The position numbers were made by a program, and so were the translations under genes. Positions 9,540 through 61,546 of a stretch of DNA of 64,000 bases are shown here, in pieces. The DNA comes from Camelus dromedarius. Its lineage: Eukaryota. Every line of letters begins with the position of its first letter. Positions within the stretch are counted from its first letter, which is position 1. The stretch covers positions 78,556,001 to 78,620,000 of the forward strand of contig NC_087436.1 of NCBI RefSeq assembly GCF_036321535.1. Direction: 5' to 3'. The notes beneath the pieces are model-generated. The model saw only the letters and a program-made list of their open reading frames with translations. It was not told the origin of the DNA and ran no database searches.

Positions 9540-10080
9540 ATGGCCCCACCTCCCTGACTGCCAATCAATCGCCCCTCACGCCTGCGCAGACACCGTCCTC
9601 TCCCGGAGCCCCGCCCCAGTCACCCGCCCCGAGGCTGCCGCGGGCGGTTAGGTCTGGCGGGAGCCTTTCCTTCACTGGCCCGCCCACTATGACGATCACC
9701 TACAGCTGCGTTGCAAATGGCCGAGCGGTCCTAGCCGAGCTGGCCCTAACCGGCGGCTCTTATCAGGTACCCCTGGGTCGCCACCTCGGCCATCACGGGT
9801 TCCACTTTTCGAGGGTGGTACCCACCGGACCTGCCCCTCGGGACGCGGCGCTAAGGAGCTGCCGGGAATCGGCTGTTGAGGCGTGAGGCCCCGCCTCCGC
9901 GAACGGCCTCTCCCTCGAGAGGCCACGCCGCCGCGCGGCCTAGCCTGCGAGATGGTGAATCCCTGGCGGGAGCCGCTCGCGCTCCCAGACGGCAGAGCCG
10001 CAAGTGCGCCGCCCAGGGGCTACGGTTGGTGTTGCACGCGACCTACTTGGCCGTGATTAGCAGTCACGTTTAATTCCGGA
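9540..10080 (+). promoter_or_regulatory. Small CpG-island promoter of the VAMP-like gene
   Basis: Local CpG enrichment around exon 1. CCAAT 9561-9565, NRF1-like CACGCCTGCGCA 9577-9588, GC boxes ~9609-9630, MYB-type CGGTTA 9645-9650, and CTGGCGGGAGCC (E2F-type core) at 9654-9665 and 9963-9974. Confidence 0.75.
9689..9766 (+). CDS. VAMP9: VAMP-like exon 1 (longin N-terminus)
   Basis: cccactATG start with A at -3. [26 protein letters not shown] aligns with VAMP7 MAILFAVVARGTTILAKHAWCGGNFL. Donor CAG|gtaccc, phase 0. Confidence 0.85.
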
Positions 10081-13000
10081 GACCCTTAAAAATATTCTCT
10101 CCCCTGAGAGAAAATGAGAAACTGAAGAATGGTCAGCAGTTCAACCCACATTTATTGAGCATGTGTTAGTCGCAAAATCCCAGGGTAAAGGTGTGGGGGA
10201 TGAAACGATGAAGAGAAAACGGTGCCTGGAGTTGTCCTTTGATGAGCACGTTGTCCCTTTATACTCAGGGGCTACGTTCAGTCGTCCTACAGTGTGAAAG
10301 TATTTCAGTGGAGGTAGATCGAGATTACTCCCGTAGCACTCGGGATGGGTGACTGCTTGCCAGCCACAGAGGAGGTGATGCTCCTGTGCAAAAGCATTGC
10401 AAGCATTAGCCCTAGCCTGGCACAGGAAAGGGGGGTGGAGACCCCATGCGGAGGGATCAGTGTGGTGTGTTTGCGGAACCTCAAGAACCTCAAGAACCTC
10501 AGTGGGGCTAGATAGAGCACAGGTTCCCAGTATACAGGGGCTAAAGATGAGGTCAGAAAAGTGGACAAAGAATAGTTAATAAAAAGTCCTATATTCAGTT
10601 TGGTTTTTTATCCTAAAGATTTATAAATAGAAGAATAGCAAGATCTGATTCATCTCCTGGAAAATTTGATCTGGTTACAATGTACAAGGTGGATTGGAGG
10701 GAAGAGAAACAGGATGGTATTCTTACTGGTTACCCAGAAGATCTAAGGGCCTGAGCTAGGGCAATAACCTGCAGAAGAAAAGAAGGGGACAGATCCTAAA
10801 CTTACTTTGTAAAACTAATCCTCATAGAGTTAATGACTGGCTGAATATGCGGGAGAAGGGTCAGGGCCATGACTAGGATGATTCTCAATTTTTAAAATCT
10901 TTTTCCCCAGCTTTATTGAGATAAAATTGGCAGAACATTGTGTAAGTTTAAGGTGTTTAATGTGAAGATTTGTCAATTTTTTTTCTTAGGTGGCATCAAA
11001 CGATAGAAACGACAGATGGAGGGGCAGAATTGTGGGGAAAGGAGTCAGAGGGAATGCAGGGGAGGAGAGTACAGCCTGGGACAGGTTGAATTGTGTTGCG
11101 GGTTGGAAATAGCCAATCTATTTGTGTATTTATTCCTCCATCTTATTCCCAAAATATTTAAGTCATAAAAATATCCAATAGGTCGCACTCAGAGGGTCAG
11201 GGTGAACAGTTAAAGATAGTTGAAGTAGATAAGATTGCCCAAGAAGGACTGTGAGTTCAATGAACACCTTGTAGATCTTGTTCAGCTTCTCTGGAGCATA
11301 AGACATTGTTTTAATTTTCTTCTCTTGGTTTTCAGAATACCATTCCTCTCATTCGGTGGCCCACCTCTCTATTCTGTTCTAAAACAGCGTTCTGCTTTTT
11401 GGCGCTCTGCTATTCTGACTGTATACTTTTCTTGGGCAATCTTATCCTTCAACTTTCTGTCTCCCTTCATAATTATGAAATGTTTATTAAGAACCTACTA
11501 CGGCATCGTCCACTGTACAAAGATTAAAACAGTCCCTGTCTTAAAGGAGTTCATAAGCCCAGTGGCCTCTCTTTATGAAGCATGCAGGGAGGTAAGAAAG
11601 TGGAAGGCGATGGAGCAGTATGCAGTCGGAGGAAAGGATTAAAGATGTGGGATGACTGCTCTGTGGAAGGCTGACCAGAGAGGAGAAAAAGGATGACAAA
11701 GAGCTTCAAGGGACATACCTTTCCTTGGTGCTAAATATTAATATGACAAATATTTTATACTTACTAGACAATATTAGTACCTACCAAAGCATAATCATGA
11801 AATCAAATCATGATGGAGCTGGACAGGATCCTAGAGATCATCTTGCCCAGTCCCTTCATTTTTCACACAAGGAAACAGACCCAGATAAGTCACCTTCTCA
11901 AGCTGTGCAGCACATCAATTCTAGAAACAGTACTGCAGCCCAGGCTGTCACTCATTTTACTGCCTCACGTTGCCATTTGCTTCGTTTGTCATTTTTCTAT
12001 GATTCCATTGTTTATATACTCTAACAGAGACACCTGGAGAAAGGTAGGGGAATATGATCCAATGAAGAGAATAGACTAATTGAAAGATTATAGATTCCCT
12101 TAATGTTTCTTAGGAAATCCTTTTCTAGAAAATACTGCCTGGATTTTTCAGGCAATACCAATAATTTCAAGTTTTACTCTTTACCATTAGTAATAAGCCT
12201 TACTCTCCCCAAAAGTTTTTATTTCCAGTGTCATTTTGTAAAAATGGAAAAGTTAATCAGGAGTGCGGCTACTCAAGTCTTCTTAGGTTACTTTCACGTC
12301 CCTTTCACATGTGTAAAGTCAATTTATGGGATTCCATACAATCAACTGTATTTAAGGTATCTGGATAATCGCAGTACCTTACAAAATTTCCCCCAAAGAA
12401 TAAGCCTTATAAGAAACAGGCATGAGAGATCTTAGTAATTATTTGTCTTTTAGAAAAAAATCAGTGAATAATAATGAATAAAATTTTTTATCTTAATCAA
12501 AAAAAAAAGAAGACTGCTTAAGTTATTCTGAGACTAAAAGCAGAATACTTTTAATCCATTAATATTTTATATGTAGCTTCATAGAGGTCACTGAAAAGAT
12601 ACTTGATTAGATAGTACTTCCCAGCCTTGAAACCATATATGATAATGTGCTGTAAAAATAAGACTAATTAGTGCAACTTATATTTGCATACTTATGTGTA
12701 TGCACAAAGTATATGTGTATTTATGTAATTTTATTATTTTCCTTCAGATTCATATGAATATTTCATGATAACTTGCCTCTTACCATGCATTACGAATAAC
12801 CACCTATTTGTCCTCCTAGTAAACAGTTGTTCCTTAATAAACTAAACAGAACATTGGTAAATTAAGGAGATGTATAATGAAAGACACTACAGTCTTCTGC
12901 AAAGTAAATGCTGACAATTTATTTTTAGGAAGCAGCTGCAACAGTGCTTAAACTAGTGCTTCTTAGAGCTGAACCAAAGACCATAATTCATATGGGAAGG

Positions 13001-16000
13001 TATGGTATACTCTAATAAAAGCCTACTTTTCAATAATTACTAGCTAATAATTCCAATGATAATGATATAGGGAAAAAATATTTGTTGCACAGACTCTTGA
13101 TTGAACCCTCAGAAAGGAGAACTTTTATATGTAAAAGTATAAAATGATGAATGGGAATGATGAACACTAAATTCGAAATAGTGGTTCCCTCTGCAAAGAG
13201 AAGGGAGAAGAAGTTGTGGGGACATTGTCTCTGTAACATTTTGACTGGATGGTAGGTCTACAACTGTTCTTGTTATCTTATTCTCCATACTTTGTTGGCA
13301 TACCCAAAATATTTCATTAATAAAAAAGGAGACTTCCACTTGAAAATATCTGTAATAAGATCATTAAGATTTACTTGGGACATTGCATGGTTTGGCCTAA
13401 ACCAGTCTTAAAAACCTTTTGCTAGTAAAAGAACAGGTGAGGAATAAGAAAGCTTCTATAATTTTTAGACTCATCATTTTTTTTAAGAGGAGGTTTGTTT
13501 TAACCTTTATATTGTAAAATAAAACAAAACAGAAAAACCTCATCAAGCAAATGTATAGTTTCATGAAGTTTTTCGAAGAACCCCACTACCAACCAACTGC
13601 AACTGTCACCTAAGTCAGAAAATGGAGTACTGCCAGCTCCCCCCAAAACTCCCCACCATGTAGCCTGGCCTGCTCACAGTTTCCTCCCTCCCCCTCAAAT
13701 CAACCATCATTCCAACTTCTGTTGCAGTCATTTATCCTGTTTATTGCCTCAGTACCTAAATATGCATCCTCAGACACAAGAGCCCAATCCTGCCCATTTT
13801 TAAAATTGATGTTTTCCAAGTCTCTTTAACCCACATATTTCCCCTCCTTCCCTTTCTTTTCCTTACAATTTATTGTTGAAGAACCTGTAGAGCTTCCCAT
13901 ATTCTGGTTTTGCTGATTGCATATTCAAAATACAATTCACCATGTTCCAAGCAGCCGGATCCGGCGGCATGATCCCTTTGGCAAGACTACAGGTGTTTTT
14001 TCATCAGATGGTACATAACATCTGCGTATGTCTCCTTTCGGCATGCTAGCAGCCATTGACTTTCACTGCCTACATCCTAGAGCCATTAATTTATTGGGGG
14101 GTTGCAAAATGGTGACATCTAGTTTTGTTTTCACTTATTAGCTGAAGTGATTTTTTTTGAAAAAAGATACTATCCTCCTCTACTATTTGCTTAACCTACA
14201 GTGGACATTCTAATTTGAGTCTTTTGAGGATCTCTTCCCTGAACTCCAGACTTGTATATCCAACTGCTTCTTCTACGTCTCTGTTGGATATCTAATGGGC
14301 ATCTCAAACTTAGTTCCAAAACCAAACCTCCCCCTACAGCCTTCCACATGTTACCTTTCCAGTGCCTCAGGCCAAAAGGCCTTCATATTTTAGAGAGTTT
14401 TTATTTAACGTAATTTACTTTGATTTTTCAAGTGTATGATAGATTCTCTAATTATTCTGATTATAAAAAGTTATCTACATAGTTTTTACACTGTTAGTGA
14501 GAGCTTGAAAATGAAATTTAAATTCTCTGTGTCATTGCTTAATTTCTTTAATGTGATGTAAATGAATGTACTCTTTTCAAAGCTTTGTCTACCATACTCT
14601 GTTTATTGATGGAATCACTTACCTATGTGCTTCAGACAATACCTTGGATACCATAACACCATCTGCATTTCTTAAAAATGTAAGTAATTTCTTGTACTAC
14701 TTTAAGGACTTCTTCAGTTACTGAAATTATTAGGTGTCTATTCTATAGTTTATTAGTAATAATGTCACTGACCAAAAGCAGATCATACATGTCTGCGAGA
14801 TTAACATCTACATGTCTGTATAGTAGAGCCATTAATGACCTTCAGAGATTTCTTGCCCTTATCCCTCATCTGTCTCCTGCTTTCATACCTCCCCTGACTC
14901 GAAAGCAAGATCTGCAAAGACAATCCACCCAGATCTACTAGAATCTCTCTGTGTATTTATTTTGTTCTTTAAAAATAAGAAAAATTATCTTTACTAATAT
15001 TTAATATACCTTTTCAATAGCATATGTATTTAATTTTCAAATAATTATTGTAAGACATTTCTGGTAGAAAATATGAATCAATTGTATGAGTTAAATGAAA
15101 AAAATTTTTTACTCAAGACATACTATCTTTAGGAAACATCTTACCTGAAAACTCCTGGCAAATATAAAATATGCTAAATGGAATACTTATATGTATGTAC
15201 TTATGTGGATAAATGAGATTTTATAAGTTTCTCAAAGGGTAATTAACCTTCTCAATAGATATCATCAGTTGCTATCACCCAGCATTTAATCTCCGACTAG
15301 AATAAGACTGTGAAAGGCAGTCTCAGAGGCAGACCACGGCTAAACCATTATTCTGATAACTTTATGGTCCAGATAGTATGTTTGTATCTTATTTTAAAAA
15401 GTAAAAAATACTAATCTTCAATTTTATTCACAAATATATAATTTAGGATAAATATTTTAACAAAAAATATTCATGGAAAAATCAGTCAGCTATACTATAG
15501 TTACTAATAGTTATTCTCCAGTCACAGTCATAAATAATGCATACATTTTATTTGTTTAGCATAACAACTTGTTTTAACACAACTCAAACTGTAACCATAT
15601 ATAGAATCAAAGATTACAAGACCTAATACTGTAGTTCACTCTACAGTTATGCCGAGACAGTCATTAGCATCTACCTGCTAAACGTTGTTAGCCATTTAAC
15701 TGACTCCACTCTAATTTTTTTTCCTTCTCTGCCATTATGGAAGAACATCTCAACTTTACCAACTTTTCAAAACTATATGACACAAAACTTCTAACCACAT
15801 GATGGTTACTACTACTTCTGAATTGTCAGAATTGTCAAAATTCCTTCTTGAAGTTTTGAAATGTCATATAACAACCCTATAGGTTTTGAAAAATAGTATC
15901 ATGATATTTAGTTGGGATTGTTTTGTTATTGTTGAATGGATTTTGAGGGTAGGGGCAGGAGGGGAAAATGGAAAGCATTTATTTAGAAGATATCATGGAA

Positions 16001-17625
16001 TCCCATCTTTCCTTCTCTGCCAAAAGGAAACATCTGCAAGTCCCCTCACTTCCCCAGAAATGCCAATACCAAAGAGTCAAGGCAGCACCTGCAGTCTCAC
16101 GATACGAGGCTGTGGTCTGTACTTCTGTGGTGGAGAAGACTGGGAAAGCACAGTTTTCATTAATACTGTATCTTTAAATGGAAAGGACACCCAGACACCA
16201 AAAATCCAGAAATGTTCTGGTTTCTTTTCTTGCCAGTTTCTGCCAGACTTTGCTTCAAATAATGCTTGCTCTGTAGTTCTCCAGTTGAAATTATCTATAT
16301 AGTTTAAATATTTCCATTAATTTTCCCAGGTTAGTGAGACTTTTCTGAGAAATCCTTTGATGTCACAAGAACATTTTTCTCCTTCAAATGCAGTCGCTGC
16401 AGATTTTCAACAAGTATTAGGAAAGTATATGGTATGTAACCTCCAATTGTATTCCTAAACATTGTTAGTGTTACATCTAACTAATCAGGAATTATGAGTT
16501 AAGAGCTGTTAAGGTGAATGAGAAGTAAGAACTTCTATCTCTATATAATGATAAGGAATGGTATCCAAGATACATTGATAAGTGAGTAAAGCAAGATAGA
16601 GAAAATATGTATAGTATTCTGTTATTTACTTATCATCCTGTATGCATCCATTTAAGAAAGAGGGAATAAACACAAATATATTTTTGCTTATAGTGAAAAA
16701 GGGTGGGACAGAAGGACATGGGAAGGATAAACCAAAAGCATTTCAATGGTTGCCTGTGTAGAAATGGGGACAGGAATAGAAACTAGAGCTCTCTGAATGA
16801 AAGTTGACTTGGAACTGTTGTAAATATTTTACACAATTATAAAATCCTATTAAAGTAAATATTTTAAGTAGTCCCTAATAAGTGAAATAAGACAGTCCGA
16901 GAGGACAAATACTGTGTGATGCCACTTATTTGAGGTACATAGAGTAATCAGATTAATAGAGACAAAGTAGAATGGCGGTTGCCAGAGACTGAGTGGAAGG
17001 GAGGAGGAGTTCTTGTTTAATGGGTACAGAGTTTCAGTTTGGGAAAATAAAAAAGTTCTGGAGATGGATGGTAGTGATAGCTGCACAGCAAGGTGAATAT
17101 CCTTAATGCCACTGAACTAAGCAGTTGAAAATAGTTAAAATTACACATTTTATGATATGTATGTTTTAACATAATAAAGTTTTTAAATTTTTTTCTTTTA
17201 TTGAGACATAGTTACTGTATAATATTATTTAAGTTATAGGTATATAATATGATTCACAATTTTTAAAGATTATACTCCATTTATAGTTACTATGAAGTAT
17301 TGGCGTATTCCCTATGTGGTACAGTATATCCTTGTAGCTTATTTTATACCTAATAGTGTCTACCTCTTACTACCCTACCCCTGTCTTACCCCTCCCCCAT
17401 TTCATCTCCCCATTGGTAACCACTAGTTTGTTCTCCATATCTGTGAGTCTGCTTCTTTTTTGTTATATTCACTAGCTTGTTGTATTTTTTAGATTCTACA
17501 TATAAGTGATGTACAGGATTTGTCTTCTCTGTCTGACTTATTTCAGTTAGCATAATGCCCTCCAAGTCCATCCATTGTTGCTGCAAATGGCAATATTTCA
17601 TTCTTTTTTATGGCTGAGTGGTATT

Positions 17626-17660
<35 letters not shown>

Positions 17661-20600: not shown

Positions 20601-23600
20601 ATAATTGCCAAAACATGGAAGCAACCAAGATGTCTTTCCATAGGATAAATAAACTGCAGTACATCCAAACCATGGACTATTATTCAGCCCTAAAAAAAAA
20701 TGAGCTATTAAGCCATGAAAAGACATGAATCTTAAGTTCATATTACTAAGTGAGAGAAGCCAATATGAAAAGGCTACACATTGTATGATTCTAACTATGT
20801 GGTATTCTGGAAAAGGCAACACTATGGAGACAGTAAAAAGACCAGTTGTCTCCAGGGCTTAGGGAAAAAGGAAGCATGATTAGGTGGAGCACAAAGGATT
20901 TTAAGGGCAGTGAAGCTGTTCTGTATGATGCTGTAAAAACGAATACATGTCATTATGTCATTATACATTTGTCCAAATCCGTTGAATTTACAGTATTAAC
21001 AGTGAACACTAATGTAAACTATGGGCTTTGTATGATAACGATGCATCAATGTGGGGTCACCCATTGTGACAAATGTACCAGTCAAGTGCAGGATGTTGAT
21101 GGTGAGGAAGGCTGTGCATGTGTCAGGGATAAGGAGTATCTGTACTTTTCACTCAATTTTACTGTAAACCTAAAACTGCTCTTTTTTAAAAGTCTCTACT
21201 AATAAATAAACAAAAAATTTAAACTTAAAAAGAAACTTCCACTGCTGATTATACAGTCCTGCTCCCGCCACCCTCCATTTTTCCTGCAAGATTAAGGTGA
21301 GACAATTTGAGGCTTAGTTGATTCCTTATGCTGAAATGCAAGTGAGATGTGCCTTTGACACCTTTGTTCTAATTTATACAGTGTATCATAATAGATTTCA
21401 CTTATAGAAAATAAAATTTATATTATATTTCACTTCTATATAGATGAAATACAATAAAAATCAAGATGACAGCTCGATGTCCACACTGAGGAGTCAAGTG
21501 ACTGATGTAAAAAATGTTCTGACCCAAAATATTGATAAAATTTTGGAAAACGAGGGAAGATTGAATATCTTCTCTGATAAGACAGCTAATCTGCAAACAA
21601 CTGTGAGTGTTACAGAGCTCTCTTGATACCTAAATACTGCTCTAAAGCACAGGCTCACTACCCTTGAGACAAACTGCCCAAAGCAAAAATACACCTGGGA
21701 CACTAAGTGAGAGAATCGTATGTCACCAAGCTATGGCTTCATGAAAAAAATTATTGAAATGCAACTAAAGTATTAAAAGAATAATTATAAAACAATCCAA
21801 ATTTTAAAACCCATTAAAGTAACAGATGGTTATTTGTGTGAAAGGAGGATTTCTTACATTAAGAAACACAGAGGTTAGTCAACAAATAAATTGCAAGGGA
21901 AAAAAGGAGAAGGAAACTTACCCAAAAAAAGACTTAGAAGGTATTATCAATTGCAGTGTGTGGTCCTTACTTGGATTTTGATTCTAACAAACTATAAAAG
22001 TGAAATTTCACAGCTTCATGAGACAACTAGATATTTGAACTCTGGCTGGATGCTAGATGATATTAAGGAATATTACTAATTTTTAGGTGTGATAATGGCA
22101 TTGTGGTTATGTTTTTTTTAAAACACCTTCATTGTGGTATGTTTCCTGTACAGCAAACTAAACATATTTCAAACGTACAATTTGATTAATTTTGATAGCT
22201 GCATACACCAGTGAAATCACTATGGCATTGTGGTTATGTTTTGAAAAGAGTCATTACTTATTAGAGATATACAGTAAAATACTTACGAATGAAATTATGT
22301 AACATCTGAATTTTGCTTCAGAATAGTTCAGGAGTTGGGGAGTAGAATGGGGTATAAATGAAATAAAATTGGCCATAAAATAACAATGGTTAAAACTGGA
22401 TGTTGAGAATATAGGGGCTCATTATGCCACCTGTTAACTTTTGTATGTGTTTGAAATTCTGTATTAAAAAATAGTTTTAAAACAATCACTAAAAGTTGAA
22501 AGCTTCCTCTGAGCATTTAAAATTTTATTTTTACAGATAGTTTCTAGAAACACAGCCACCAGGTAAAGCAAAGTCTACACATACTTTTTACTCACCAAGT
22601 TCTATTAATTCACCTTCCTAAATCTTTTTTGTTCTTAGGCTCATTTTTACTTCTTTAAAAACAACTTACCAAAGCATTATTTACATATAATATTCACCCA
22701 CCTTAAGTGGAGTTTAATGGCTTGTGGTAATTGTGTACAATTGTGTGACCACAATCAAGTTGTAGACCAGCTCTTCCATCCTAAAATCTTCCTCATCCCT
22801 CCTTTATAGTTGACTTAACCCTACCTCTGACCCCAACCAACCACTGATCTGCTTTCAGTTACTATAGTCTTGCCTCTTCTGGAGCGTCGTATAAATAGAA
22901 TCATAAAATACATAGTCTTTTGTGTTTGACTTCTTTTACTTAACATAATGTTTCTAATATCCATGTTGTTGTGTGTTAATATTTTATTCCTTTTCATTGC
23001 TAAATAGTATTCCACAGAATGGCTAAATCTCTTAAACCCACCTTCTGCTCATCCATTGCCACTCACTGTCTCACTCCAAGATCAGTTCTCTCTTGCCTGA
23101 TTCTGGTAATTCCCAGATTTAATTGTTCTCCCACCTTTTAGTTTTATTCTACTCCAGTCATCCTCCACACTGACACTATAAATATTCTTTTAAAATGAAA
23201 GTATGGATATTATCTATAGCCTTTTTAAAACCCTCCAGTGGTGCACCTTTGTTAGACACCAGGGTACTGTTCAACATCTCTAACTTAGTGAGCTTTCTTC
23301 TGACTATATTGTCATCCAGAGGTCATGGTCCTGTAGTTTATAAGTCTCAAAAAATACCAGACTATTTGTAATTCTCCAAAGTACACATTGAATGATTTCA
23401 CACCTTTAAATATACTGTTCCCTCTTTTTCCTTGCCTTGGAAAACTTCTATTCATCCATCAAAACCCAGCTCAAGAGTCATCTCCTCATTCATTACACAG
23501 GCTGAGTTTTTCCCTCTTATCTTTGCTATCCTTGCACCTTTTACTCATTGGTTAATTCAACAAAATCTCTTGAAGATCTACTGTCTATGTATGTGTCTAT

Positions 23601-26600
23601 AGTATTGTTTTGCATTTCTAAACTTTGTATTTATGACATTATAATGATTGTACCCTTCTGCAACCTGAGTTTTCAGTTCTACCTATGTTTTTGAGAGGTG
23701 TTCATTTTGATACACTTAGCTCTAATTTATCAGTTTAACTTCTGACAGCATAACATTACTATTTTAAGAAATACGGTGTGCTTATCCTTTCCTTTCCTCT
23801 TTTAATAAACGTTAATGTAGATTCCAACTTTTTCTTTTTAAGGAACAATACTGCATTGAACTTTTGGTACACATTTGCAAAAATGTTTTTAAGACAATTG
23901 TCTATAGAGTTTTTTGATCATGCATACTTATTTGTAAAATATTCTTGAGACTGCATTTAAATATATAGATATAAATTATATATAAGCTATATATGTTCTT
24001 CTATAATATGTTATATATTATAAAACATACAGAAAAATAGAAATTAAAAGAATGAGACAAAGATGAAATAAAATATTAAATAATTTGTTTTCTTAACAAA
24101 ATTAAAACTATTTCCCTGATTAAGAAAAATATTGATAACATTTTTTAATGCTAGCAATGTGATTAAAAGTCAGCTCTTACTACAAATGACTATTTTTTAA
24201 AATCTCTAAATATGGCAGATGGAGTATTCAAACTAGAAGCAGAGATATATCCTCGTTGCCATTTTCTTATTTATATTTGCCTTATTAGTATAATTAAGCC
24301 ACACGTCTACTTTTTAGTTTAGTGAAAACTAAGTACTAATACTCATACATTCATTTACCCAGATGCATGTAAATTGTAGGAACTGGAATATCCTACAAGC
24401 GAGTGGGTAAAGGAGTATGCTGTGGTCAGCTCTCTATCACTGTGGAATTTCCTCTCTTCCCTCAAAACACCTTAACTTTCATGCTATACCATCTTATATA
24501 ACACCTAGGGAAGATGTCAGTGCCTATCCATATGTTAAACACTAAATATTTTCATTTCCTCCTTTTTTTGTTTTTAATGTAGGTACTGGATATTGAACCC
24601 AGGACCTTGTGCATGCTAAGCATGCACTCTACCACGTGAGCTGTAACCTCCACCCGCCTCCTTCTTGTTTTGTAGATTAAGATGAACAAATAGAGGTTCT
24701 AATATTATGTTTCTGTTTTCCAGTGAATCATTTTACACAACCTCCTGGGATGTTTAATCCCATTTTGGAACCCTCATTCTACAATATATACATAGAAATG
24801 GAATTGCTGGATCTTAAAATATGTGCACCTTTAAATTAACAAATATTTCAAAATTGCTTTCCCAACTGTTATGCCCATTTATACTTCCATCAGTATCGTA
24901 TGTGAGGTCCTGTTGCTCCATAGCACCTTGCCAATACTTGGGATTATGAGATTATAATTTTTAACAGTTTTGTAGGGGAAAGAAAATAATTATTGTCTTA
25001 ATTTGCATTTCCCTAATTTTGAATGACAGTGAGCAATTTTTGTGTTTATTAACCATTAGATTTTCTTTTGTGAATTGTCTATTGACATCCTTTGCCCATT
25101 TTGCTAATGGGCTGTCTACCTTTTTAAATACTTTGTAGTTATATGTATATAATACTAATTTTATAACTATTAAAGAATGAATATATAATTCTTCATCCTA
25201 ATAGTTATGTAAAGTGTAAATATATTCTCCCAATATGTGGCTTGATTTTAACTTTGTGTGTAGTGTCCCTTTTAGGACTAAAGTCTAACTTTCATGTAGG
25301 CAAATATATTAGTCTTGTTCTTCATAGTTATGCTTTCTGTGTCTTGTTTAAGAATGCCTTCCTTTCCCCAGGTTATAAGCAGACTCTTACATTGTCTCAA
25401 AAGTTTTTAATTCTGCTTCTTAAACATGGATCTTTAAACATCTGAAATTTTATTTTTGCATAAATTATGAGGTAGGTCAGAATCAAATTTTATTATTTTC
25501 TGTATAAATAACCAGTACCCTAAACAACTGTTTTTCAATTGAAGAATAGTCAGTTTACAGTGTTGTGTCAATTTCCCATATACAGCATAATGTTTCAGTC
25601 ATACATATACATATATATATTTCTTTTCATATTCTTTTTATTATAGGTTACAAGATATTGAATATAGTTTCCTGTGCTATAAAACAAATAATCATTTATT
25701 GAATAGCTCAGCCTTTCCCATCTGGTTTGTAATGCCAACCTTGTCACATGTAATGTTTTCATATGTAAACAGTTTTTAATCTTTTTCGATTTTTATGTAT
25801 TATATTCTACAGGTCTATTTCTATATCTTTGGACCATTTAAACATTAAAAAAACATTTTTGGTGGGGGAGGTAATTAGGTTTATTTATTTATTTTTGGAG
25901 GAGGTACAGGGGTTTGAACCCTGAATCTCATGCATACTAAGCATGCACTCTGCCACTTGAGCTATATCCTCCCCCAATTTTAACATTAAAACACCATTTT
26001 AGTTACTGTGGTCTTATGAGAAGCCTTAATATCTTATAGGGCCAGTTCATCTACTTTATACTTTTTGGAAATTATGTTGGCAAGGCTTGCTTCTTTCTCT
26101 TTCAGGGAATTTTAGAATCTACATCTCAAGTTACACACACACAAAAAAGGTTATCAGGCTGTTAGGTGGAATCATGTTAATACGGGGAGAACATTTTATT
26201 TAAAATACAATTTTCCCACCTCTGAACATGCTATGTCTCTTCATTTTTCTAAGTCTCTTTCAAAAATCTTTCAATAGAGTTTTATAATTTTTCCCATAAA
26301 GATCTTGTACAACTCTTGTGAGATTTATTTCTTGATATCTTACCATTTTGTTGCTATTGTAAAGGACATTTTTTAAACTACATTTTCAAAAAAAATTTTT
26401 TGATTAATAGGAACACAGTCAATTTTTGCATATTGATTTTGTATCCCAAGTCTTGCTGAACTCTTTTATGGTAATATTTTTTGTATGGATTTATTTGCAT
26501 TTTCTACATAGGAATTCTATCATATGTAAACAAGGACTGGATTTTTTTTATCCTTTCCAATGTATCTTATTTGTTTATTCATTTATTTGTTTGTTTGTTC

Positions 26601-29600
26601 ATTTATTTATTTAGGCTTGTCTTACTACATTAGCTAGGAACTCCAGAAAAATGTTGAAGAGAAATGTTGATGTCTGAAATACTTGTTTTGTTTCTGATGG
26701 AAAAATGAATAATTTCTAATGCTTCAGTTAAGTATTAAATTTACATTCAAATTTTGATAGGTATCTTTTAACAAGCTATGAACATTTCTTCCTATTCCTC
26801 ATTTGCTAAGAAATTTTATCATGAAAGGAGGTTGCATTTTATCAAATGCCTTTTTCACATTGAGTTAATAATTTTTCTTCTTTACCCTGTAAATATGATG
26901 AATTGCACATTACATATTTGTATGTGTTGTTGAATTCAATATGTTATAGTTTATCATTGTTGCCTCAAAAGACTCAGTCCACAAATGTATAAAAACTATA
27001 TGTGATACGCCATGTGCAGTTGTATTCTCCTGTAATTTTTCAGTCTGTCCTGTGCCTGTGGTTAGTTTTATTTTTTCATTCCTAACCTCTCTTTATTTTT
27101 TATGGGAGTTATAATTAACATATAATATTATATTAGTTTCAAGTGTACAACACAGTGATTCAATATTATTTTATATTATTAAATGCTCACCACAATAAGA
27201 CCACTTACCATCCTGTCACCATACAAAATTGTTACAGTATTATTGACTATGTTCCCTATATGTACATTACACCTCTGTGACTTACTTTATAGCTGGAAAT
27301 TTGTACCTCTTAATCCCCTTCACCTATTTTGTCTGTCCCCCTACCCCTCTCCCCTCTGGCAACCACCTCCAAGCTTTTTTTTTTTTTTTTTTTGGAGGGG
27401 GATGTCTTTTGAAAAGATCAGTTTTTGATTTATTTATAATTCCATTCAAAACTTAGTTGATTCTAATCTCATTGCTTCTAATCATTTCCAAGTGATTGTG
27501 GATACATGTGAAGTTCTTTTCCAGACGTATTTCTGAAGCCTGGTTATTTCTTTGCTTCCTTGCTCATGCCTTCCTCTCATGTTAAAGGCAACTACTTTGA
27601 GACCATTAGGCTTGGTTGGATAGGAAGTTTATACCCCTAATCTGATCTCTAATGCAGGGCAGAATCTTTTTTTTTTTTCAATTGAGGTAAAATCCACATA
27701 ACATAAACTTAACATTTTAAAGTATACATTTTAGTGGCATTTAGTACATTCACAATATTGTACACTCATCACCTCTATCTAGTTCCAAAACCTTTTCATC
27801 ACCCCAAAAAGAAACTTCATACCCATTAAGCAATTACTCCCCAGCCCCTGGCAACCAATAACTTACTTTCTGTCTCTATGGCTTTATCAGTTCTGAATAT
27901 TTCATATAAATAGAATAACATAATCTGTGATCTTTTGTGTCTGGCTTCTTTCACTTAGCATGATGTTTTTGAGGGTGATCCATGTTGTAAGCATGAGTCA
28001 GTACTTCATTCCTTTTTGGCTGAATAATATTCTATTGTATATATGTACCACAACTTGTTTATCCATTCATCAGCTGATGGATATTTGGGTTGTTTCTGCC
28101 TTTTGGCTACTGTGAATAATGCTGCTATGAACATTCATTTACAAGTTTTTGTTTGAATACTTGTTTTCAATTCTTTTTATGTATGTACATAAATGGAAAT
28201 GCTGGATCATATGGTAATTTTATTTTAACTTTTTGATAGTTTTAAGGAACTTCCCAACTATTTTCCACAGTAGTTGAACCATTTTACATTCCCATCAGTG
28301 ATATGAGGGTTCCAATTTCTCCACATCTTCTTCAACACTTGTAATTTTTCATTTTTTTTAAATTACAGCCATGCTACCAGGTATGAAGTGGTATCCTTAT
28401 TTTGATTTGCATTTCCTTGATTACTAATGATGTTGAGCATCTTTTCATGTGCTTGTTGGCCATTTGTGTATCTTCTTTGGAGAAAATCTATTCATGTCCT
28501 TTGCCCATTTTTAATAGGTTCAGGGGGGTTTTGTTTTTGAGGAAGGGTAGAATCTTAATGGGCTTTTGTCATTAAAAAGCCTTTTCAATCTTACGTCTTA
28601 TTATTTGGGCCCAAATCCATCAGCTTATCCAATCTTTCAGTGTTCCACATTTCTGCAGTCTCTCTATTCCTTTTCATGTCTTCTTGCAAACCAGCCAATT
28701 GTTACCTTGCTAAAATGTAGCTAGTAACAAGAACTCACACTACTACCATTCTATTTTCCAAACTTCTTCTAAAATGACAGATTTAATGATACTTTGTCTG
28801 CCTTTCAGATTGTCACATATGATAGTTTTAGCAAATATTTTACCGTGCATAGCATTGGTCTTTATGTTTCCAATCTCTAATATTAGTTTGTTCTCTGCTT
28901 ACCACCTGGTGGTTAAGCCACTGCTATGTTTTAGGGTTTTGTCATAACAATATCTCATCCAACTACCAATTTCAATATTAGAAAAACACTAGCTGTACCA
29001 GCATACCTCAAGTTTTCAGTGTTTTAACTCAATAGAGGTTTGTTTCTTGGTTGTATAATGGTCTAAAGCAGGTTTTCAGTGAGCAGATTTCCACATGGTA
29101 ATCCAGAAACCCAGGCTTTTTCCATTTTGTGACTTTGTCATTGCCTTGGCCCCTTAGAGTCTCAACTTCAGGTGGCAGCTGGTTAAACATGGCGTGGAAG
29201 AAGCACATTTGCTTATAGCCACGTTAGCCCAAAAGTGACACTCATCACTTCTACTCACAATCTATTGGTAAGAATTAGTCTTATAGCTTTGCATAGGTGC
29301 AAGGGGTAGGAGAGAAACATGGTCTGTGATTGGAGAGTCTCTTGCCAGCAACAACTCTACACTACGGAAGGGGAACTTAAAGTCTTCAGTGGATAGCTGG
29401 CTGTCTTTACCACATCTGGAAGTTTATCACTAAAGGAGATTCTAAAGGAAGTATAGAAAGTGGTAAAGGTGTGGGTAACACTAAATGAATCTTGACTGCA
29501 ATATAGGTTCCTCTCCTTATCCCTGACAAAGGATAATAAATTGTATTATCTAAAGACAACAGACCTAAGAGATTCTAAACTCAGACACCGGGTGCAGTTG

Positions 29601-32600: not shown

Positions 32601-33886
32601 AGAGTCATGAGGCCATCAAGCAGCATACCAGGATCATGCCATTAATAGCATGCATCGTAATCATGAGCCTTGATTTTGTTCTTGAAAAATCACCATATAC
32701 ACTGAGTAAAGAAGCTGATCTGATGCATGAAGAAAGATAACTGAAATTTGTTAGAATTTTACTTCTTATCCAGGTGGCAGATAGCAGAAATCCATGTAAG
32801 CACCAAGCAATTTACCTGTATTACGGCTATATGAAAAGCAGTTACATGTATTTTAAAAACAAAAAGGAGTGGACCAAATGAAAACAATAAAGCTTTTTGC
32901 AGGGGATGAGGGAAGGATTTTACAATTCCGTGTGGCCTTGTTTCATCTCTCTCCACTGCTCCTTCAATTCTGTCAGTAATTTGAGTAAAAGTGAGCTATT
33001 TTGTTTAGGTTTAATTATGTTAATATATAAAACTTTTTCTATTGTACTTAACAAAATCCATTTTATTATTCATCAAAAATATTAACTATCACAATGGCAT
33101 AATTTATTCTTATATGGCAGTCTAGATATGCTATCCTCACTATCTCAGTTATGCCTAACAATCTGGGCGACTCCGTAGTACATGCCCTTATCCTCATTTA
33201 CTAAACAGATTTAGTCATTCATTTTTTCAACAAATACTAATTGAACACCGGCTCTATATCGTGCACTGTTGGGAATATAGCAATGAATGCAACAGACAAA
33301 AATCCCTGCATTCATAAAGTTTACATTCTCAACAAACAATAAATAAGTAAAATTTACATATTGTTAGATGAAAGATAAGTACTTTGGAGAAAAAATGTAT
33401 TGAAGGGAAATAAGGTTTCAGGGATGGAGATGGAGGTAGCAATTTTAAATAGGTTTATAAGGGATAGTGGCATTTAAGTAGAATCATGAAGTGAAGATGA
33501 GGAAGCTGAAGTTCAAAGAGTCAGTAACTTGTTCAAGGTCACGAAGTTAATAAAGCCAGTAAAAGTATAGCTGACCACAATAAGGAATCTTGGTGCATCG
33601 TTTTATAATAGCTGCTCAGACCTATTGAGACTTTTTGGGATTGGTCCCAAATTAAATCTGTTCTTTTAGATGGTGCTAAGTATTGTAGTGTGCACATTAA
33701 TCCAGAAATGGAAAGAAAAGTTTACATCTGTGTTTATTTTTATTTCAGGCCAAAGAATCCAAAAAAACAAGAAAGATTCTTAGGAGGATATGGTGGAAAC
33801 ACTTCAAAAAGATTATCATTATCACCGTGGCAGTTCTCCTTTCAGTCATCATCCTTCTTTTAAGTACAAATGTAATACCAACCTGA
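9689..33886 (+). CDS. VAMP9: Longin-domain R-SNARE (VAMP7-like / VAMP9), 6 coding exons, 214 aa: join(9689..9766,12929..12999,14583..14679,16330..16431,21444..21602,33749..33886)
   Basis: Exons of 78+71+97+102+159+138 = 645 nt, all GT-AG with compatible phases and no internal stop. Protein: [214 protein letters not shown]. It is collinear with recalled VAMP7. The symbol rests on recalled synteny of VAMP9/VAMP9P with HNRNPD and is less certain than the family call. Confidence 0.85.
10130..11100 (-). mobile_element. L2-like fragments with a short nested L1 3'-end insertion (~10890-10975)
   Basis: L2 hallmark (ttcaacccacatttattgagca) plus a T-rich L1 3' end flanked by repeated tcaattttt. Confidence 0.5.
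12929..12999 (+). CDS. VAMP9: VAMP-like exon 2 (longin)
   Basis: Acceptor atttttag|GAA; encodes [23 protein letters not shown] plus AG; donor AG|gtatgg, phase 2. Confidence 0.8.
14583..14679 (+). CDS. VAMP9: VAMP-like exon 3 (longin)
   Basis: Acceptor ctcttttcaaag|[19 protein letters not shown] aligns with VAMP7 YLFHYICQDRIVYLCITD. Donor AAT|gtaagt. Confidence 0.88.
16330..16431 (+). CDS. VAMP9: VAMP-like exon 4 (end of longin)
   Basis: Acceptor ttttcccag|[17 protein letters not shown] aligns with VAMP7 AMNSEFSSVLAAQL. Donor ATG|gtatgt, phase 0-0. Confidence 0.85.
16850..17180 (+). mobile_element. L1 3'-end fragment
   Basis: L1M-type 3'UTR text (taagtgaaataagacag...gggtacagagtttcagtttggg...aaagttctggagatggatgg). 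Confidence 0.7.
17190..17920 (-). mobile_element. L1 3' end (ORF2 C-terminus and 3'UTR)
   Basis: Minus-strand ORF 17386-17601 contains [17 protein letters not shown], an L1 ORF2 C-terminal motif; T-rich tail at the left end. Confidence 0.8.
17628..17658. repeat. (TG)15 microsatellite
   Basis: Read directly from the sequence. Confidence 0.95.
18210..18750. mobile_element. MaLR (MLT-type) LTR fragment
   Basis: MLT-like phrases (gtaacaaatttaccgcaaa, ggaagctctggggaagaatctgcttc). Confidence 0.6.
19915..21230 (+). mobile_element. L1 fragment: ORF2 start joined directly to ORF2 3' end and 3'UTR
   Basis: Endonuclease-start-like sequence ([26 protein letters not shown]) at 19995-20075, followed by C-terminal ORF2 and 3'UTR sequence ending in an A-rich tail. 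Confidence 0.8.
21444..21602 (+). CDS. VAMP9: VAMP-like exon 5 (SNARE motif)
   Basis: Acceptor cttctatatag|ATG; synaptobrevin-type heptads [39 protein letters not shown]; donor ACT|gtgagt; 159 nt, phase 0-0. Confidence 0.92.
21860..23020. mobile_element. L1 3'-end fragments in both orientations, with a nested short insertion
   Basis: L1 3'UTR motifs. Minus-strand ORF 22821-23015 ([13 protein letters not shown]...[11 protein letters not shown]) is an L1 ORF2 C-terminus. A 21-bp direct repeat lies at 22095-22115 and 22222-22242. Confidence 0.7.
24563..24657 (-). mobile_element. tRNA-derived SINE (camelid-type)
   Basis: Reverse complement reads agctca..gtggtagagtgcatgcttagcatgcacaaggtcctgggttcaatatccagtacc with A/B boxes and an A-rich tail. 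Confidence 0.8.
24790..28520 (-). mobile_element. Cluster of antisense L1 fragments in VAMP-like intron 5
   Basis: T-rich ORF2 and 3'UTR sequence. The element at ~27670-28545 is flanked by a TSD-like aggg(c/t)agaatctt. Confidence 0.75.
25857..25976 (-). mobile_element. tRNA-derived SINE (camelid-type)
   Basis: Reverse complement gggggaggatatagctcaagtggcagagtgcatgcttagtatgcatgagattcagggttcaaacccc, with repeated aacattaaaa flanks. Confidence 0.8.
28970..29410. mobile_element. MaLR (MLT1-like) LTR fragment
   Basis: MLT1-like phrase aagtgacactcatcacttctactcacaatctattgg. Confidence 0.5.
29420..31300 (+). mobile_element. Old L1 5'/ORF1 remnant
   Basis: A-rich ORF1-like text (aacaggagtttcagaaaaagaaaat, ttgaaaattctgaaggaaaattatttc). 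Confidence 0.6.
31854..32036. mobile_element. hAT DNA transposon (MER20-like)
   Basis: Terminal inverted ends cagggtttctcaacc ... agttaggaaccactg, with internal MER20-like text (gacaatcaaaactgtctc...ttgccaaatgtc). Confidence 0.7.
33749..33886 (+). CDS. VAMP9: VAMP-like exon 6 (SNARE C-terminus, WWK juxtamembrane motif, TM anchor, stop)
   Basis: Acceptor ttttatttcag|GCC; encodes [48 protein letters not shown] at 33884-33886. Confidence 0.9.
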   Translation, partial: AKESKKTRKILRRIWWKHFKKIIIITVAVLLSVIILLLSTNVIPT

Positions 33887-33913
33887 CCCTTCTCCCCATC
33901 CCCAGCAGGTACC

Positions 33914-33919
33914 AATAAA
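33914..33919 (+). terminator. Poly(A) signal of the VAMP-like gene
   Basis: AATAAA 27 nt after the stop codon, followed by TG-rich sequence. Confidence 0.6.
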
Positions 33920-61200: not shown

Positions 61201-61546
61201 CATTGGGCCTGGAGGGCGGGCGGAGAGCGGGAACGAGGCCTAATGGCGGGGGGCAGGGAGGGGGAGGGGGGATAGTTGGGCCTGACTATCCCGGGCCGCC
61301 CCTTACTCACCCTTCATCCTCCTCGTTCTTACTGGCATCGATCTTCGCCCCCTCGGACTCGGCGCTGCCCCCTTCGGTGCCGCCGGCCGCGGTTCCGCCC
61401 CCGGTCCCGGCTCCACTTCCCGCCGCCGCCGCTGCCCCCTGCGCCGCCGCCACCATGGCTCCCTCCTGTTCGCCCGCTGAGCCGCCTACCGCCGCCGTTG
61501 CCGCCGCCGCCGCCGCCCCATCCCCGCCGAACTGCTCCTCCGACAT
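46202..61546 (-). CDS. HNRNPD: Heterogeneous nuclear ribonucleoprotein D0 / AUF1 p45, 356 aa: complement(join(46202..46269,47350..47496,47609..47708,48168..48299,49400..49561,50170..50338,59368..59424,61311..61546))
   Basis: [11 protein letters not shown]-terminus, two RRMs (MFIGGL / RGFGFVLF and IFVGGL / RGFCFITF), Q-rich, RGG and GY-rich tail ending [10 protein letters not shown]. Exons of 236+57+169+162+132+100+147+68 = 1071 nt, all GT-AG. Confidence 0.98.
47350..47496 (-). CDS. HNRNPD: HNRNPD alternative exon 7 (147 nt)
   Basis: Encodes [21 protein letters not shown]...; cag| acceptor and |gtaagt donor; frame-preserving. Confidence 0.96.
47609..47708 (-). CDS. HNRNPD: HNRNPD exon 6
   Basis: Encodes [33 protein letters not shown]. 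Confidence 0.96.
48168..48299 (-). CDS. HNRNPD: HNRNPD exon 5
   Basis: Encodes [44 protein letters not shown]. Confidence 0.96.
49400..49561 (-). CDS. HNRNPD: HNRNPD exon 4
   Basis: Encodes [54 protein letters not shown]. Confidence 0.97.
50170..50338 (-). CDS. HNRNPD: HNRNPD exon 3 (RRM1)
   Basis: Encodes [56 protein letters not shown]. Confidence 0.97.
54085..54280. mobile_element. MIR SINE
   Basis: MIR-like text (tctacatctgtaaaaaagagg...taagtgctcaataaa). Confidence 0.6.
57626..57722 (+). mobile_element. tRNA-derived SINE (camelid-type)
   Basis: ggggggagggtaacagctcagtggtagag...ccccagtacctcc plus an A-rich tail, with an acttaag direct repeat on both sides. Confidence 0.82.
59368..59424 (-). 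CDS. HNRNPD: HNRNPD alternative exon 2 (57 nt)
   Basis: Encodes [18 protein letters not shown](W); ccctag| acceptor and |gtaaaa donor. Confidence 0.96.

What the first reader, a model, noticed from the sequence alone, without database searches (positions are those of the whole stretch)
9689..33919. Hidden, intact six-exon longin R-SNARE gene (VAMP7-like / VAMP9) convergent with HNRNPD
Seen: six short exons over 24 kb, only two touched by the ORF track, splice via GT-AG introns (3162, 1583, 1650, 5012, 12146 bp) into an open 214-aa frame. The gene has a CpG promoter and an AATAAA. Established: longin + R-SNARE + TM anchor is the VAMP7 architecture, and the textbook mammalian longin R-SNAREs are VAMP7, SEC22B and YKT6. 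Inference: this is a separate, strongly diverged, intron-containing paralog (not a retrocopy), i.e. an additional and essentially uncharacterised membrane-fusion component.
Basis: partly seen in the sequence, partly recalled or inferred. Interest (0 to 1): 0.88.

Follow-up and report, generated by a model that had tools for sequence, protein, structure and literature searches.

The report
Camel VAMP9 gene, already annotated
This is a real, intact six-exon gene for a VAMP7-like vesicle protein, but it is the dromedary copy of the already named and annotated gene VAMP9, so it is not a hidden or new gene.

Summary
Six + strand exons (9689-9766, 12929-12999, 14583-14679, 16330-16431, 21444-21602, 33749-33886) join through GT-AG introns into a 214-aa frame. 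That protein is letter-for-letter the RefSeq protein XP_031288620.2 of Camelus dromedarius. It has a longin domain, a synaptobrevin SNARE motif and a C-terminal membrane anchor.

The gene is not hidden. Orthologues are annotated across placentals, marsupials and a turtle, and are named VAMP9 in horse and cattle. HGNC named the human pseudogene VAMP9P after the published rodent Vamp9.

- VAMP9 is not a recent VAMP7 duplicate. It groups with invertebrate "VAMP7-like" proteins and shares a C-terminal motif with them; a VAMP9+VAMP7 clade is rejected.
- The camel protein has Asn, not Arg, at the SNARE zero layer, so it is an R-SNARE by descent only.
- The SNARE motif is the least conserved part of the protein.

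The parts
9600..9999 (.). CpG-rich promoter and 5' region overlapping exon 1
   Evidence: GC 0.69-0.71 and CpG observed/expected 0.82-0.98 in 9600-9999. GC 0.571 for 9001-10000 against about 0.3-0.4 in the flanks.
9689..9766 (+). Coding exon 1 (78 nt; Met1-Gln26; start of the longin domain)
   Evidence: It holds the first in-frame ATG after an upstream stop, and the donor is CAG|gtaccc. The N-terminus MTITYSC is shared by the orthologues.
12929..12999 (+). Coding exon 2 (71 nt)
   Evidence: acceptor ...tttttag|GAA, donor AAG|gtatgg. The joined frame equals P0035.
14583..14679 (+). Coding exon 3 (97 nt; longin core)
   Evidence: On its own it hits Pfam Longin at E 0.01, below the cut-off.
16330..16431 (+). 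Coding exon 4 (102 nt; end of the longin domain and linker)
   Evidence: No Pfam hit on its own.
21444..21602 (+). Coding exon 5 (159 nt; SNARE motif, includes the zero-layer Asn152)
   Evidence: Synaptobrevin PF00957, E 2.2e-9, 37.5 bits against a cut-off of 26.4; 100% identical to camel RefSeq isoforms. Searches give the zero-layer alignment.
33749..33886 (+). Coding exon 6 (138 nt with stop; end of the SNARE motif, membrane anchor, tail LLSTNVIPT)
   Evidence: PF00957 at E 1.9e-4; modelled helix 172-208 with pLDDT 82-87 over residues 190-210.
33914..33919 (+). AATAAA polyadenylation signal, 28 nt after the stop
   Evidence: A second AATAAA lies at 34564. In 7 runs recorded as RNA, 0.79-0.89 of the sampled words of 33749-34600 are present, so the 3' end actually used is unresolved.
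24583..24636 (+). Alternative terminal coding piece of a predicted camel isoform without membrane anchor (187 aa, P0031)
   Evidence: the last 18 aa of the isoform tail map here, inside intron 5. This is a database prediction, not verified.
29158..29235 (+). Alternative terminal coding piece of a predicted camel isoform without membrane anchor (195 aa, P0001/P0033)
   Evidence: the last 26 aa of the isoform tail map here, inside intron 5. This is a database prediction, not verified.

Best explanation
The locus is the dromedary orthologue of VAMP9. It is a six-coding-exon gene for a 214-aa tail-anchored protein with three parts: an N-terminal longin domain (about residues 1-121), a synaptobrevin-type SNARE motif (about 126-182) and a C-terminal membrane helix (about 191-208).

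Shown: the gene model, its identity to the RefSeq protein, the domain content, the longin fold, and the orthology and separateness from VAMP7.

Inferred mechanism (my estimate about 0.45): it sits on vesicle membranes through its tail anchor, probably in male germ cells, and the longin domain folds back on the SNARE motif as in closed VAMP7. Selection acts mainly on the longin domain and the anchor. The SNARE motif keeps its N-terminal layers but has lost the zero-layer Arg (Asn152 in camel) and the +6 Phe (Ser). It therefore more likely works as a regulatory, docking or weakly zippering partner of Q-SNAREs than as a standard fusogenic R-SNARE.

The confidence figure refers to the identity and architecture.
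For: Gene model and identity:
- The joined model is identical over 214 of 214 residues to XP_031288620.2. It differs at 1 position from the earlier dromedary version, at 2 from C. ferus/bactrianus and at 5 from alpaca.

Domain content and fold:
- Pfam on the full protein: Synaptobrevin 3e-17 (62.7 bits, cut-off 26.4) and Longin 3.9e-6 (27.1 bits, cut-off 26.2).
- PDB by sequence: VAMP7 4b93_A at E 1.1e-17 over residues 1-183, the VAMP7 longin domain 2dmw_A at 2.5e-8, VAMP2 at 4.2e-10, SEC22b at 2.6e-4.
- AlphaFold model from 100 sequences: mean pLDDT 73.6, about 90 over residues 1-90, with the longin beta-beta-alpha-beta-beta-beta-alpha-alpha order.
- Foldseek best hit 4b93_A (E 1.7e-9, TM 0.77 on the target), followed by VAMP7 longin structures, Sec22b and Ykt6.

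Orthologues:
- 148 proteins at E<=1e-5; 34 of the 120 listed are exactly 214 aa. They come from placentals of all superorders, marsupials and Chelonia. Those of horse and cattle are named VAMP9.
- HGNC: VAMP9P was named by orthology to the published rodent Vamp9.
- Cattle VAMP9 is listed among the genes around a SNP together with HNRNPD and RASGEF1B, matching the hnRNP D-type neighbour here.

SNARE motif:
- The zero-layer column is Arg in 71 of 71 non-VAMP9 homologues. In the 29 VAMP9 orthologues it is Arg in 14, Ser in 8, Asn in 4 and Lys in 3.
- Mean pairwise identity among 24 placentals is 0.82 for the longin domain and 0.76 for the anchor plus tail, against 0.65 for the SNARE N-half and 0.55 for the SNARE C-half.

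Expression:
- 4 RNA runs labelled 'reproductive system metagenome' hold 0.86-0.89 of the sampled words of the last exon plus downstream sequence.
Against: - Splicing and expression in camel rest on the RefSeq prediction and on conservation.
- The Pfam Longin score clears its cut-off by only 0.9 bits.
- The model is unreliable over residues 150-182, with pLDDT below 50.
- No dN/dS could be computed, because no orthologous coding DNA was available.
- The human orthologue is a pseudogene, so the gene can be lost.
- The non-fusogenic reading is inference only. SNAREs with zero-layer substitutions can still work in some systems (recalled, not checked here).
- 14 of 29 orthologues keep Arg at the zero layer.
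- I did not read the 2014 paper that named VAMP-9 (not held).
Confidence: 0.88

Rival explanations
1. It is a fully competent fusogenic v-SNARE that works like VAMP7 in a specialised (germ-cell) fusion step. On this view the zero-layer Asn is tolerated.
For: - The SNARE motif scores well above the Pfam cut-off (62.7 bits).
- The N-terminal core layers are conserved in the orthologues: V135 in 26 of 29, V138 in 28 of 29, N145 in 27 of 29.
- The membrane anchor is intact.
- 14 of 29 orthologues keep the zero-layer Arg, and all 23 invertebrate relatives have it.
Against: - Camel has Asn at layer 0 and Ser at layer +6. Rodents have Pro at layer +4 (5 of 29).
- The C-terminal half of the motif is the least conserved region, at 0.55 identity among placentals, whereas the longin domain is the best conserved.
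- The gene is dispensable in humans, where it is a pseudogene.
Confidence: 0.35
2. The camel gene is drifting towards a pseudogene, as in humans. The open frame is a remnant without function.
For: - The human orthologue is a pseudogene.
- The zero-layer Arg is lost, and the dromedary has its own E154G change in the motif.
- RefSeq predicts several isoforms without anchor or without the SNARE exon.
Against: - The frame is intact at 214 aa with canonical splice sites in dromedary, Bactrian/wild camel and alpaca, with at most 5 differences.
- 35 columns are invariant across 29 species, out to a turtle.
- Conservation is uneven, highest in the longin domain and the anchor, which is not expected for neutral decay.
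Confidence: 0.06
3. It is simply a mis-called VAMP7 orthologue, or a recent VAMP7 duplicate or retrocopy.
For: Databases label many orthologues 'VAMP7' or 'VAMP7-like'. VAMP7 is the best solved-structure match.
Against: - The gene has five introns.
- Identity to vertebrate VAMP7 representatives is only about 25-28%.
- VAMP9 and vertebrate VAMP7 are each monophyletic at 100/99. Forcing them together costs 85.7 log-likelihood units, AU p 1.15e-10.
- The Cys-containing luminal tail is seen in 0 of 29 VAMP9 against 8 of 10 members of the canonical VAMP7 clade.
Confidence: 0.01

Closest known systems
VAMP9 (rodent Vamp9; horse and cattle VAMP9; human pseudogene VAMP9P)
   Same: - It is the same gene. 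The protein is identical to the dromedary RefSeq entry.
- It is 85% identical to horse VAMP9 (P0048) and 62% to mouse LOC102639650 (P0090).
- Cattle VAMP9 is listed with HNRNPD, matching the neighbour seen here.
   Different: - The camel record carries no VAMP9 name ('uncharacterized protein LOC116147180').
- Camelids have Asn at the zero layer, where mouse has Arg and rat has Lys.
- In humans the gene is a pseudogene.
VAMP7 / TI-VAMP (longin R-SNARE; PDB 4b93, 2dmw, 2vx8)
   Same: - The architecture is the same: longin + SNARE + anchor.
- VAMP7 is the best match both by sequence and by fold.
- The model folds the SNARE N-half back onto the longin domain, as in 4b93.
   Different: - Identity is about 25%.
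- It belongs to a separate clade.
- There is no zero-layer Arg in camel.
- It lacks VAMP7's conserved Cys...Cys luminal tail (the tail is described in PMC13748404, passages read).
- Its SNARE motif evolves faster than its longin domain.
Invertebrate 'VAMP7-like' proteins (Branchiostoma, Glandiceps, Limulus, Centruroides, Ornithodoros, Lingula, Lineus, Bugula, Dimorphilus)
   Same: - They are the nearest relatives in the trees, in one clade with VAMP9 at 100/98 support.
- They share an end-of-anchor motif of the STNVI/ATGVI type: 22 of 29 VAMP9 and 18 of 23 of these proteins, against 0 of 48 others.
   Different: - All 23 keep the zero-layer Arg and the +6 Phe.
- Identity to camel VAMP9 is only 25-34%.
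- Whether these species also hold a canonical VAMP7 was not tested.
SEC22B and YKT6 (the other mammalian longin SNAREs)
   Same: They share the longin fold and the SNARE family: weak sequence matches to SEC22b (E 2.6e-4) and fold matches to Sec22b and Ykt6.
   Different: They are far more distant than VAMP7. YKT6 is lipid-anchored and has no membrane helix (established knowledge, recalled).

Membership tests
Longin-domain proteins (Pfam PF13774; longin fold) | Sequence match to the Longin profile at or above the curated cut-off | tested here: met
   27.1 bits against a cut-off of 26.2 (narrow), residues 40-92; the VAMP7 longin-only chains 2dmw_A, 2vx8_A and 4afi_A match at E 2.5e-8 to 2.8e-7 over residues 1-122.
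Longin-domain proteins (Pfam PF13774; longin fold) | Mixed alpha/beta longin fold (beta2-alpha-beta3-alpha2) | tested here: met
   the model has E3-10, E13-19, H26-39, E43-48, E51-58, E61-67, H74-89 and H102-121, with pLDDT about 90 over residues 1-90; the top 8 Foldseek hits are VAMP7 longin structures (E 1.7e-9 to 1.3e-6). A first model from 29 sequences was poor (pLDDT 60).
Synaptobrevin / R-SNARE family (Pfam PF00957) | SNARE motif matching the synaptobrevin profile | tested here: met
   62.7 bits against a cut-off of 26.4, residues 126-207; exon 5 alone scores 37.5 bits.
R-SNARE in the strict sense (zero-layer arginine) | Arginine at the central ionic (zero) layer of the SNARE motif | tested here: not met
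   the Arg of VAMP2 (LERDQKL), VAMP7 (AQRGERL) and VAMP8 (LARGENL) aligns with Asn152 (LENEGRL); this column is Arg in 71 of 71 non-VAMP9 homologues; in the 29 VAMP9 orthologues it is R in 14, S in 8, N in 4 and K in 3. That this Arg is the zero layer is recalled textbook knowledge.
Tail-anchored SNAREs | Single C-terminal hydrophobic helix with a short luminal tail | tested here: met
   Residues 191-208 ([18 protein letters not shown]) carry no charge, read directly from P0035; helix 172-208 with pLDDT 82-87 over residues 190-210. No dedicated membrane-helix predictor was run.
VAMP9 orthologue group | Monophyly with named VAMP9 proteins, and conserved position beside HNRNPD | tested here: met
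   the VAMP9 rows form one clade (99 to 100 support) whose branching follows turtle, marsupials, placentals; horse and cattle members are named VAMP9. Searches support the neighbourhood.
VAMP7 orthologue group | Clustering with vertebrate VAMP7, and the conserved Cys-containing luminal tail | tested here: not met
   the AU test rejects VAMP9 + vertebrate VAMP7 as one clade (log-likelihood difference 85.7, p 1.15e-10); the CGx..C tail is present in 0 of 29 VAMP9 against 8 of 10 members of the canonical VAMP7 clade. The motif was defined after seeing the sequences.
Expressed, spliced protein-coding gene | Junction-spanning RNA reads across the five introns | not testable with these tools

The most novel reading that the evidence does not exclude
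VAMP9 is not a mammalian offshoot of VAMP7. It is the amniote survivor of an old, bilaterian-wide second lineage of longin SNAREs, marked by an STNVI/ATGVI-type end of the anchor in place of VAMP7's Cys...Cys tail. In Laurasiatheria, including camels, this lineage has given up the zero-layer arginine and the +6 Phe while keeping the longin domain and anchor under constraint. That would make it a SNARE-family protein turning into a non-fusogenic, longin-driven membrane adaptor or inhibitory SNARE of germ cells.
Probability: 0.3. Interest if true: 0.55.

Novelty: already known. Interest (0 to 1): 0.28.

Why it matters
As a gene discovery it matters little. The exact protein is in RefSeq, the gene has an official name in several mammals, and it was published in 2014.

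Its remaining value is as a pointer to a poorly studied fourth mammalian longin SNARE-family protein, one that humans have lost. If the side observations hold, the textbook list of animal longin SNAREs (VAMP7, SEC22B, YKT6) omits an ancient lineage. Those observations are the old bilaterian origin, the loss of the ionic-layer arginine in Laurasiatheria, and the stronger constraint on the longin domain than on the SNARE motif.

VAMP9 would then be a natural case of a SNARE whose fusion core is decaying while its regulatory domain is kept. This can be tested with standard SNARE assembly and fusion assays and with a mouse knock-out.

Tried and rejected
- RNA-seq junction check. I found candidate runs.
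- dN/dS. Not possible, because no tool gave orthologous coding DNA of other mammals. I used per-domain protein identity instead.
- The naming paper (Chocu et al. 2014). It is not held under its PubMed id or its DOI. A search for 'VAMP-9' found no paper with that spelling. Its content is known to me only from its title and from one HGNC sentence.
- First structure model from 29 orthologues. It was too poor to use (pLDDT 60) and was replaced by a model from 100 sequences.
- Pfam on single exons. Only 3 of 6 exons gave any family hit, and only exon 5 passed the cut-off. This is uninformative for short pieces.
- Search with the Limulus relative. It returned only 21 proteins and no canonical VAMP7 from the same species. 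Co-occurrence of both lineages in one invertebrate genome is therefore untested.
- Other genes in 1-34500. 0 of 112 ORFs of 62 aa or more hit Pfam at E<=1e-4.
- Earlier findings of this scan. Nothing relevant turned up.
- Retrocopy or VAMP7 orthologue. Rejected.
- Prior description of the invertebrate clade. The literature searches found none. The SNARE classification papers of Kloepper and colleagues were not held or read, and they may already cover it.
Full report
**Observation.**
- Two solutions appeared, both 214 aa.
- The first has exons 9689-9766, 12929-12999, 14583-14679, 16330-16431, 21444-21602 and 33749-33886.
- Its translation is identical over 214 of 214 residues to P0035 = XP_031288620.2, 'uncharacterized protein LOC116147180 isoform X1 [Camelus dromedarius]'.
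- It differs at one position (V8I) from the earlier dromedary version, at two positions from the Camelus ferus/bactrianus protein, and at five from the alpaca protein.
- All acceptors follow pyrimidine-rich tracts.
- The ATG is the first in-frame ATG after an upstream stop.
- 9600-9999 is CpG-rich, with GC 0.69-0.71 and CpG observed/expected 0.82-0.98.
- AATAAA lies at 33914-33919.

Downstream, minus-strand ORFs carry a CBFNT domain (61310-61603) and three RRM_1 pieces (50152-50367, 49358-49561, 48162-48305). These are 4 of the 104 ORFs tested. A CpG island lies at 61-63 kb. This is an hnRNP D-type gene, convergent with the SNARE gene. A cattle paper lists VAMP9 with HNRNPD and RASGEF1B among the genes around one SNP.

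**What the protein is.**
- Pfam on the full protein finds Synaptobrevin (3e-17, 62.7 bits, residues 126-207) and Longin (3.9e-6, 27.1 bits against a cut-off of 26.2, residues 40-92).
- Against solved structures, the best sequence match is the VAMP7 cytoplasmic domain 4b93_A (E 1.1e-17, residues 1-183). It is followed by VAMP2, VAMP8, VAMP7 longin-only chains, and weakly SEC22b.
- A first AlphaFold model from 29 orthologues was poor (pLDDT 60).
- A second model from 100 homologues gave mean pLDDT 73.6. Over residues 1-90 the value is about 90, with the longin order of strands and helices, but it is below 50 over residues 150-182.
- Foldseek placed this second model next to VAMP7 (4b93_A, E 1.7e-9), then VAMP7 longin complexes, Sec22b and Ykt6.
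- Residues 191-208 are an uncharged hydrophobic helix.
- The architecture of longin + SNARE motif + tail anchor is therefore real.

**It is a known gene.**
- A search with exon 5 alone already returned camel RefSeq isoforms at 100% identity.
- The full-length search returned 148 proteins at E<=1e-5 (120 listed). 34 of the listed rows are exactly 214 aa.
- They come from cetartiodactyls, carnivores, horses, bats, rodents, lagomorphs, a tree shrew, a colugo, a dugong, an anteater, a shrew, several marsupials and the turtle Chelonia (52% identity).
- The horse and cattle proteins are named VAMP9.
[quoted passage not shown] It cites Chocu et al. [quoted passage not shown]
- I could not read that paper.
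- Only 8 papers in the searched library hold 'VAMP9'. All 5 whose passages I read mention it in passing: gene lists, one network hub, one review sentence.
- The gene is therefore annotated and named, but little studied.

**Relation to VAMP7.**
- An exhaustive profile-free search of 1.84 billion representatives showed a gap. VAMP9-type fragments and proteins score down to E about 1e-37, and the next proteins have about 31% identity or less.
- I picked out eight vertebrate VAMP7 representatives by a short motif.
- Source names for 20 representatives and a search with the Limulus relative allowed tips to be labelled.
- In trees of 75, 127 and 48 rows, VAMP9 is monophyletic (99 to 100 support) with the order turtle, marsupials, placentals.
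- In the careful 48-row tree VAMP9 lies in a clade (100/98) with 'VAMP7-like' proteins of a hemichordate, amphioxus, horseshoe crab, scorpion, tick, brachiopod, nemertean, bryozoan, annelid and acoel.
- In the same tree vertebrate VAMP7 groups (98/89) with Trichuris and Hyalella VAMP7.
- Forcing VAMP9 and vertebrate VAMP7 into one clade costs 85.7 log-likelihood units (AU p 1.15e-10).
- An independent character agrees. An STNVI/ATGVI-type motif at the end of the anchor is present in 22 of 29 VAMP9 and 18 of 23 VAMP9-side invertebrate or unnamed proteins. It is absent from all 10 members of the canonical VAMP7 clade and all 38 other representatives.
- A Cys...Cys tail is present in 0, 0, 8 of 10 and 20 of 38 of the same four groups. 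That tail is described for VAMP7 in PMC13748404 (passages read).

Caveats on this section:
- The motifs were chosen after looking at the sequences.
- The trees are unrooted and use LG+G4.
- Most tips are unnamed.
- I did not show that one invertebrate genome holds both lineages.
- Arthropods do fall on both sides: chelicerates with VAMP9, an amphipod with VAMP7.

**The SNARE core.**
- In the pairwise alignments, the Arg of VAMP2 (LERDQKL), VAMP7 (AQRGERL) and VAMP8 (LARGENL) aligns with Asn152 of the camel protein (LENEGRL). That this Arg is the zero layer is textbook knowledge that I recall; I did not test it.
- In the 100-sequence alignment this column is Arg in 71 of 71 non-VAMP9 proteins. 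In the 29 VAMP9 orthologues it is Arg in 14, Ser in 8, Asn in 4 and Lys in 3.
- All 12 Ser or Asn cases are among the 13 Laurasiatherian rows.
- The +6 position is Phe in 69 of the 71 non-VAMP9 proteins, but Ser in 14 of 29 VAMP9 orthologues, camel included. Five rodents have Pro at +4.
- Among 24 placentals, mean pairwise identity is 0.82 for the longin core, 0.78 for the linker, 0.65 for the SNARE N-half, 0.55 for the SNARE C-half and 0.76 for the anchor plus tail.
- In most SNAREs the motif is the best conserved part (recalled). Here it is the worst.

**Mechanism.** The identity and architecture are shown. The following steps are inferred:
- The protein is inserted by its tail anchor into vesicle membranes.
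- It is probably expressed in male germ cells. This rests on the title of the naming paper and on four RNA runs labelled 'reproductive system' that hold 0.86-0.89 of the words of 33749-34600.
- The longin domain closes on the SNARE motif as in VAMP7, which the model resembles.
- The function under selection lies in the longin domain and the anchor. I therefore favour a regulatory or weakly pairing role over a standard fusogenic one (about 0.45 against 0.35).
- Decay towards a pseudogene is unlikely (about 0.06), given the intact frames in three camelids and the uneven conservation.

**What could not be done.**
- dN/dS could not be computed, because no orthologous DNA was available.
- The 2014 paper was not read.
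- RefSeq predicts an exon-5-skipped form (P0070, 161 aa) and anchor-less forms ending at 24583-24636 or 29158-29235. These predicted isoforms are unverified.

**Verdict.** The gene is already annotated and named, however, so the finding is ordinary. The loss of the zero-layer arginine, the faster-evolving SNARE core and the old bilaterian origin are modest additions that may deserve a short follow-up.

Noticed in passing
window 25896-25972 (-), and 24552-24698: A tRNA-Thr(AGT)-like sequence lies in intron 5 (Rfam tRNA 47.6 bits; ARAGORN). From, the minus-strand ORFs 24552-24698 and 25885-25998 both contain the peptide CMLSMH, which suggests two copies of a tRNA-derived SINE-like repeat. The predicted alternative terminal exon at 24583-24636 lies inside the first copy, so that isoform tail would be an exonised repeat.
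   Followed up: partly
window 48162-61603 (-), CpG island about 61000-63000: A minus-strand hnRNP D-type gene lies downstream: a CBFNT domain at 61310-61603 and RRM_1 pieces at 50152-50367, 49358-49561 and 48162-48305, with GC 0.676 at 61001-62000. Its 3' end and the distance to the VAMP9 polyA site were not mapped.
   Followed up: partly
window 21444-21602 (codon 154) and 9689-9766 (codon 8): The dromedary has Gly154 inside the SNARE motif, where the other two camelid proteins and most orthologues have Glu. Val8 differs from the Ile8 of the earlier dromedary RefSeq version, so it may be a polymorphism.
   Followed up: no
window 33749-34600: RNA-labelled runs hold 0.79-0.89 of the sampled words of the last exon plus about 700 nt beyond the first AATAAA. 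A second AATAAA lies at 34564.
   Followed up: no
window 9881-9952 and 17628-17658: A 34-bp GC-rich tandem repeat (2.2 copies) lies in the CpG-rich start of intron 1, and a (TG)15 microsatellite lies in intron 4.
   Followed up: no
rodent VAMP9 proteins P0059, P0061, P0080, P0090, P0092 (not in the window): Squirrel, beaver, hamster, mouse and rat VAMP9 have Pro at the +4 core position of the SNARE motif. Hamster, mouse and rat also have an acidic, poorly aligned C-terminal half. This is odd for a protein expected to form a continuous coiled coil.
   Followed up: partly
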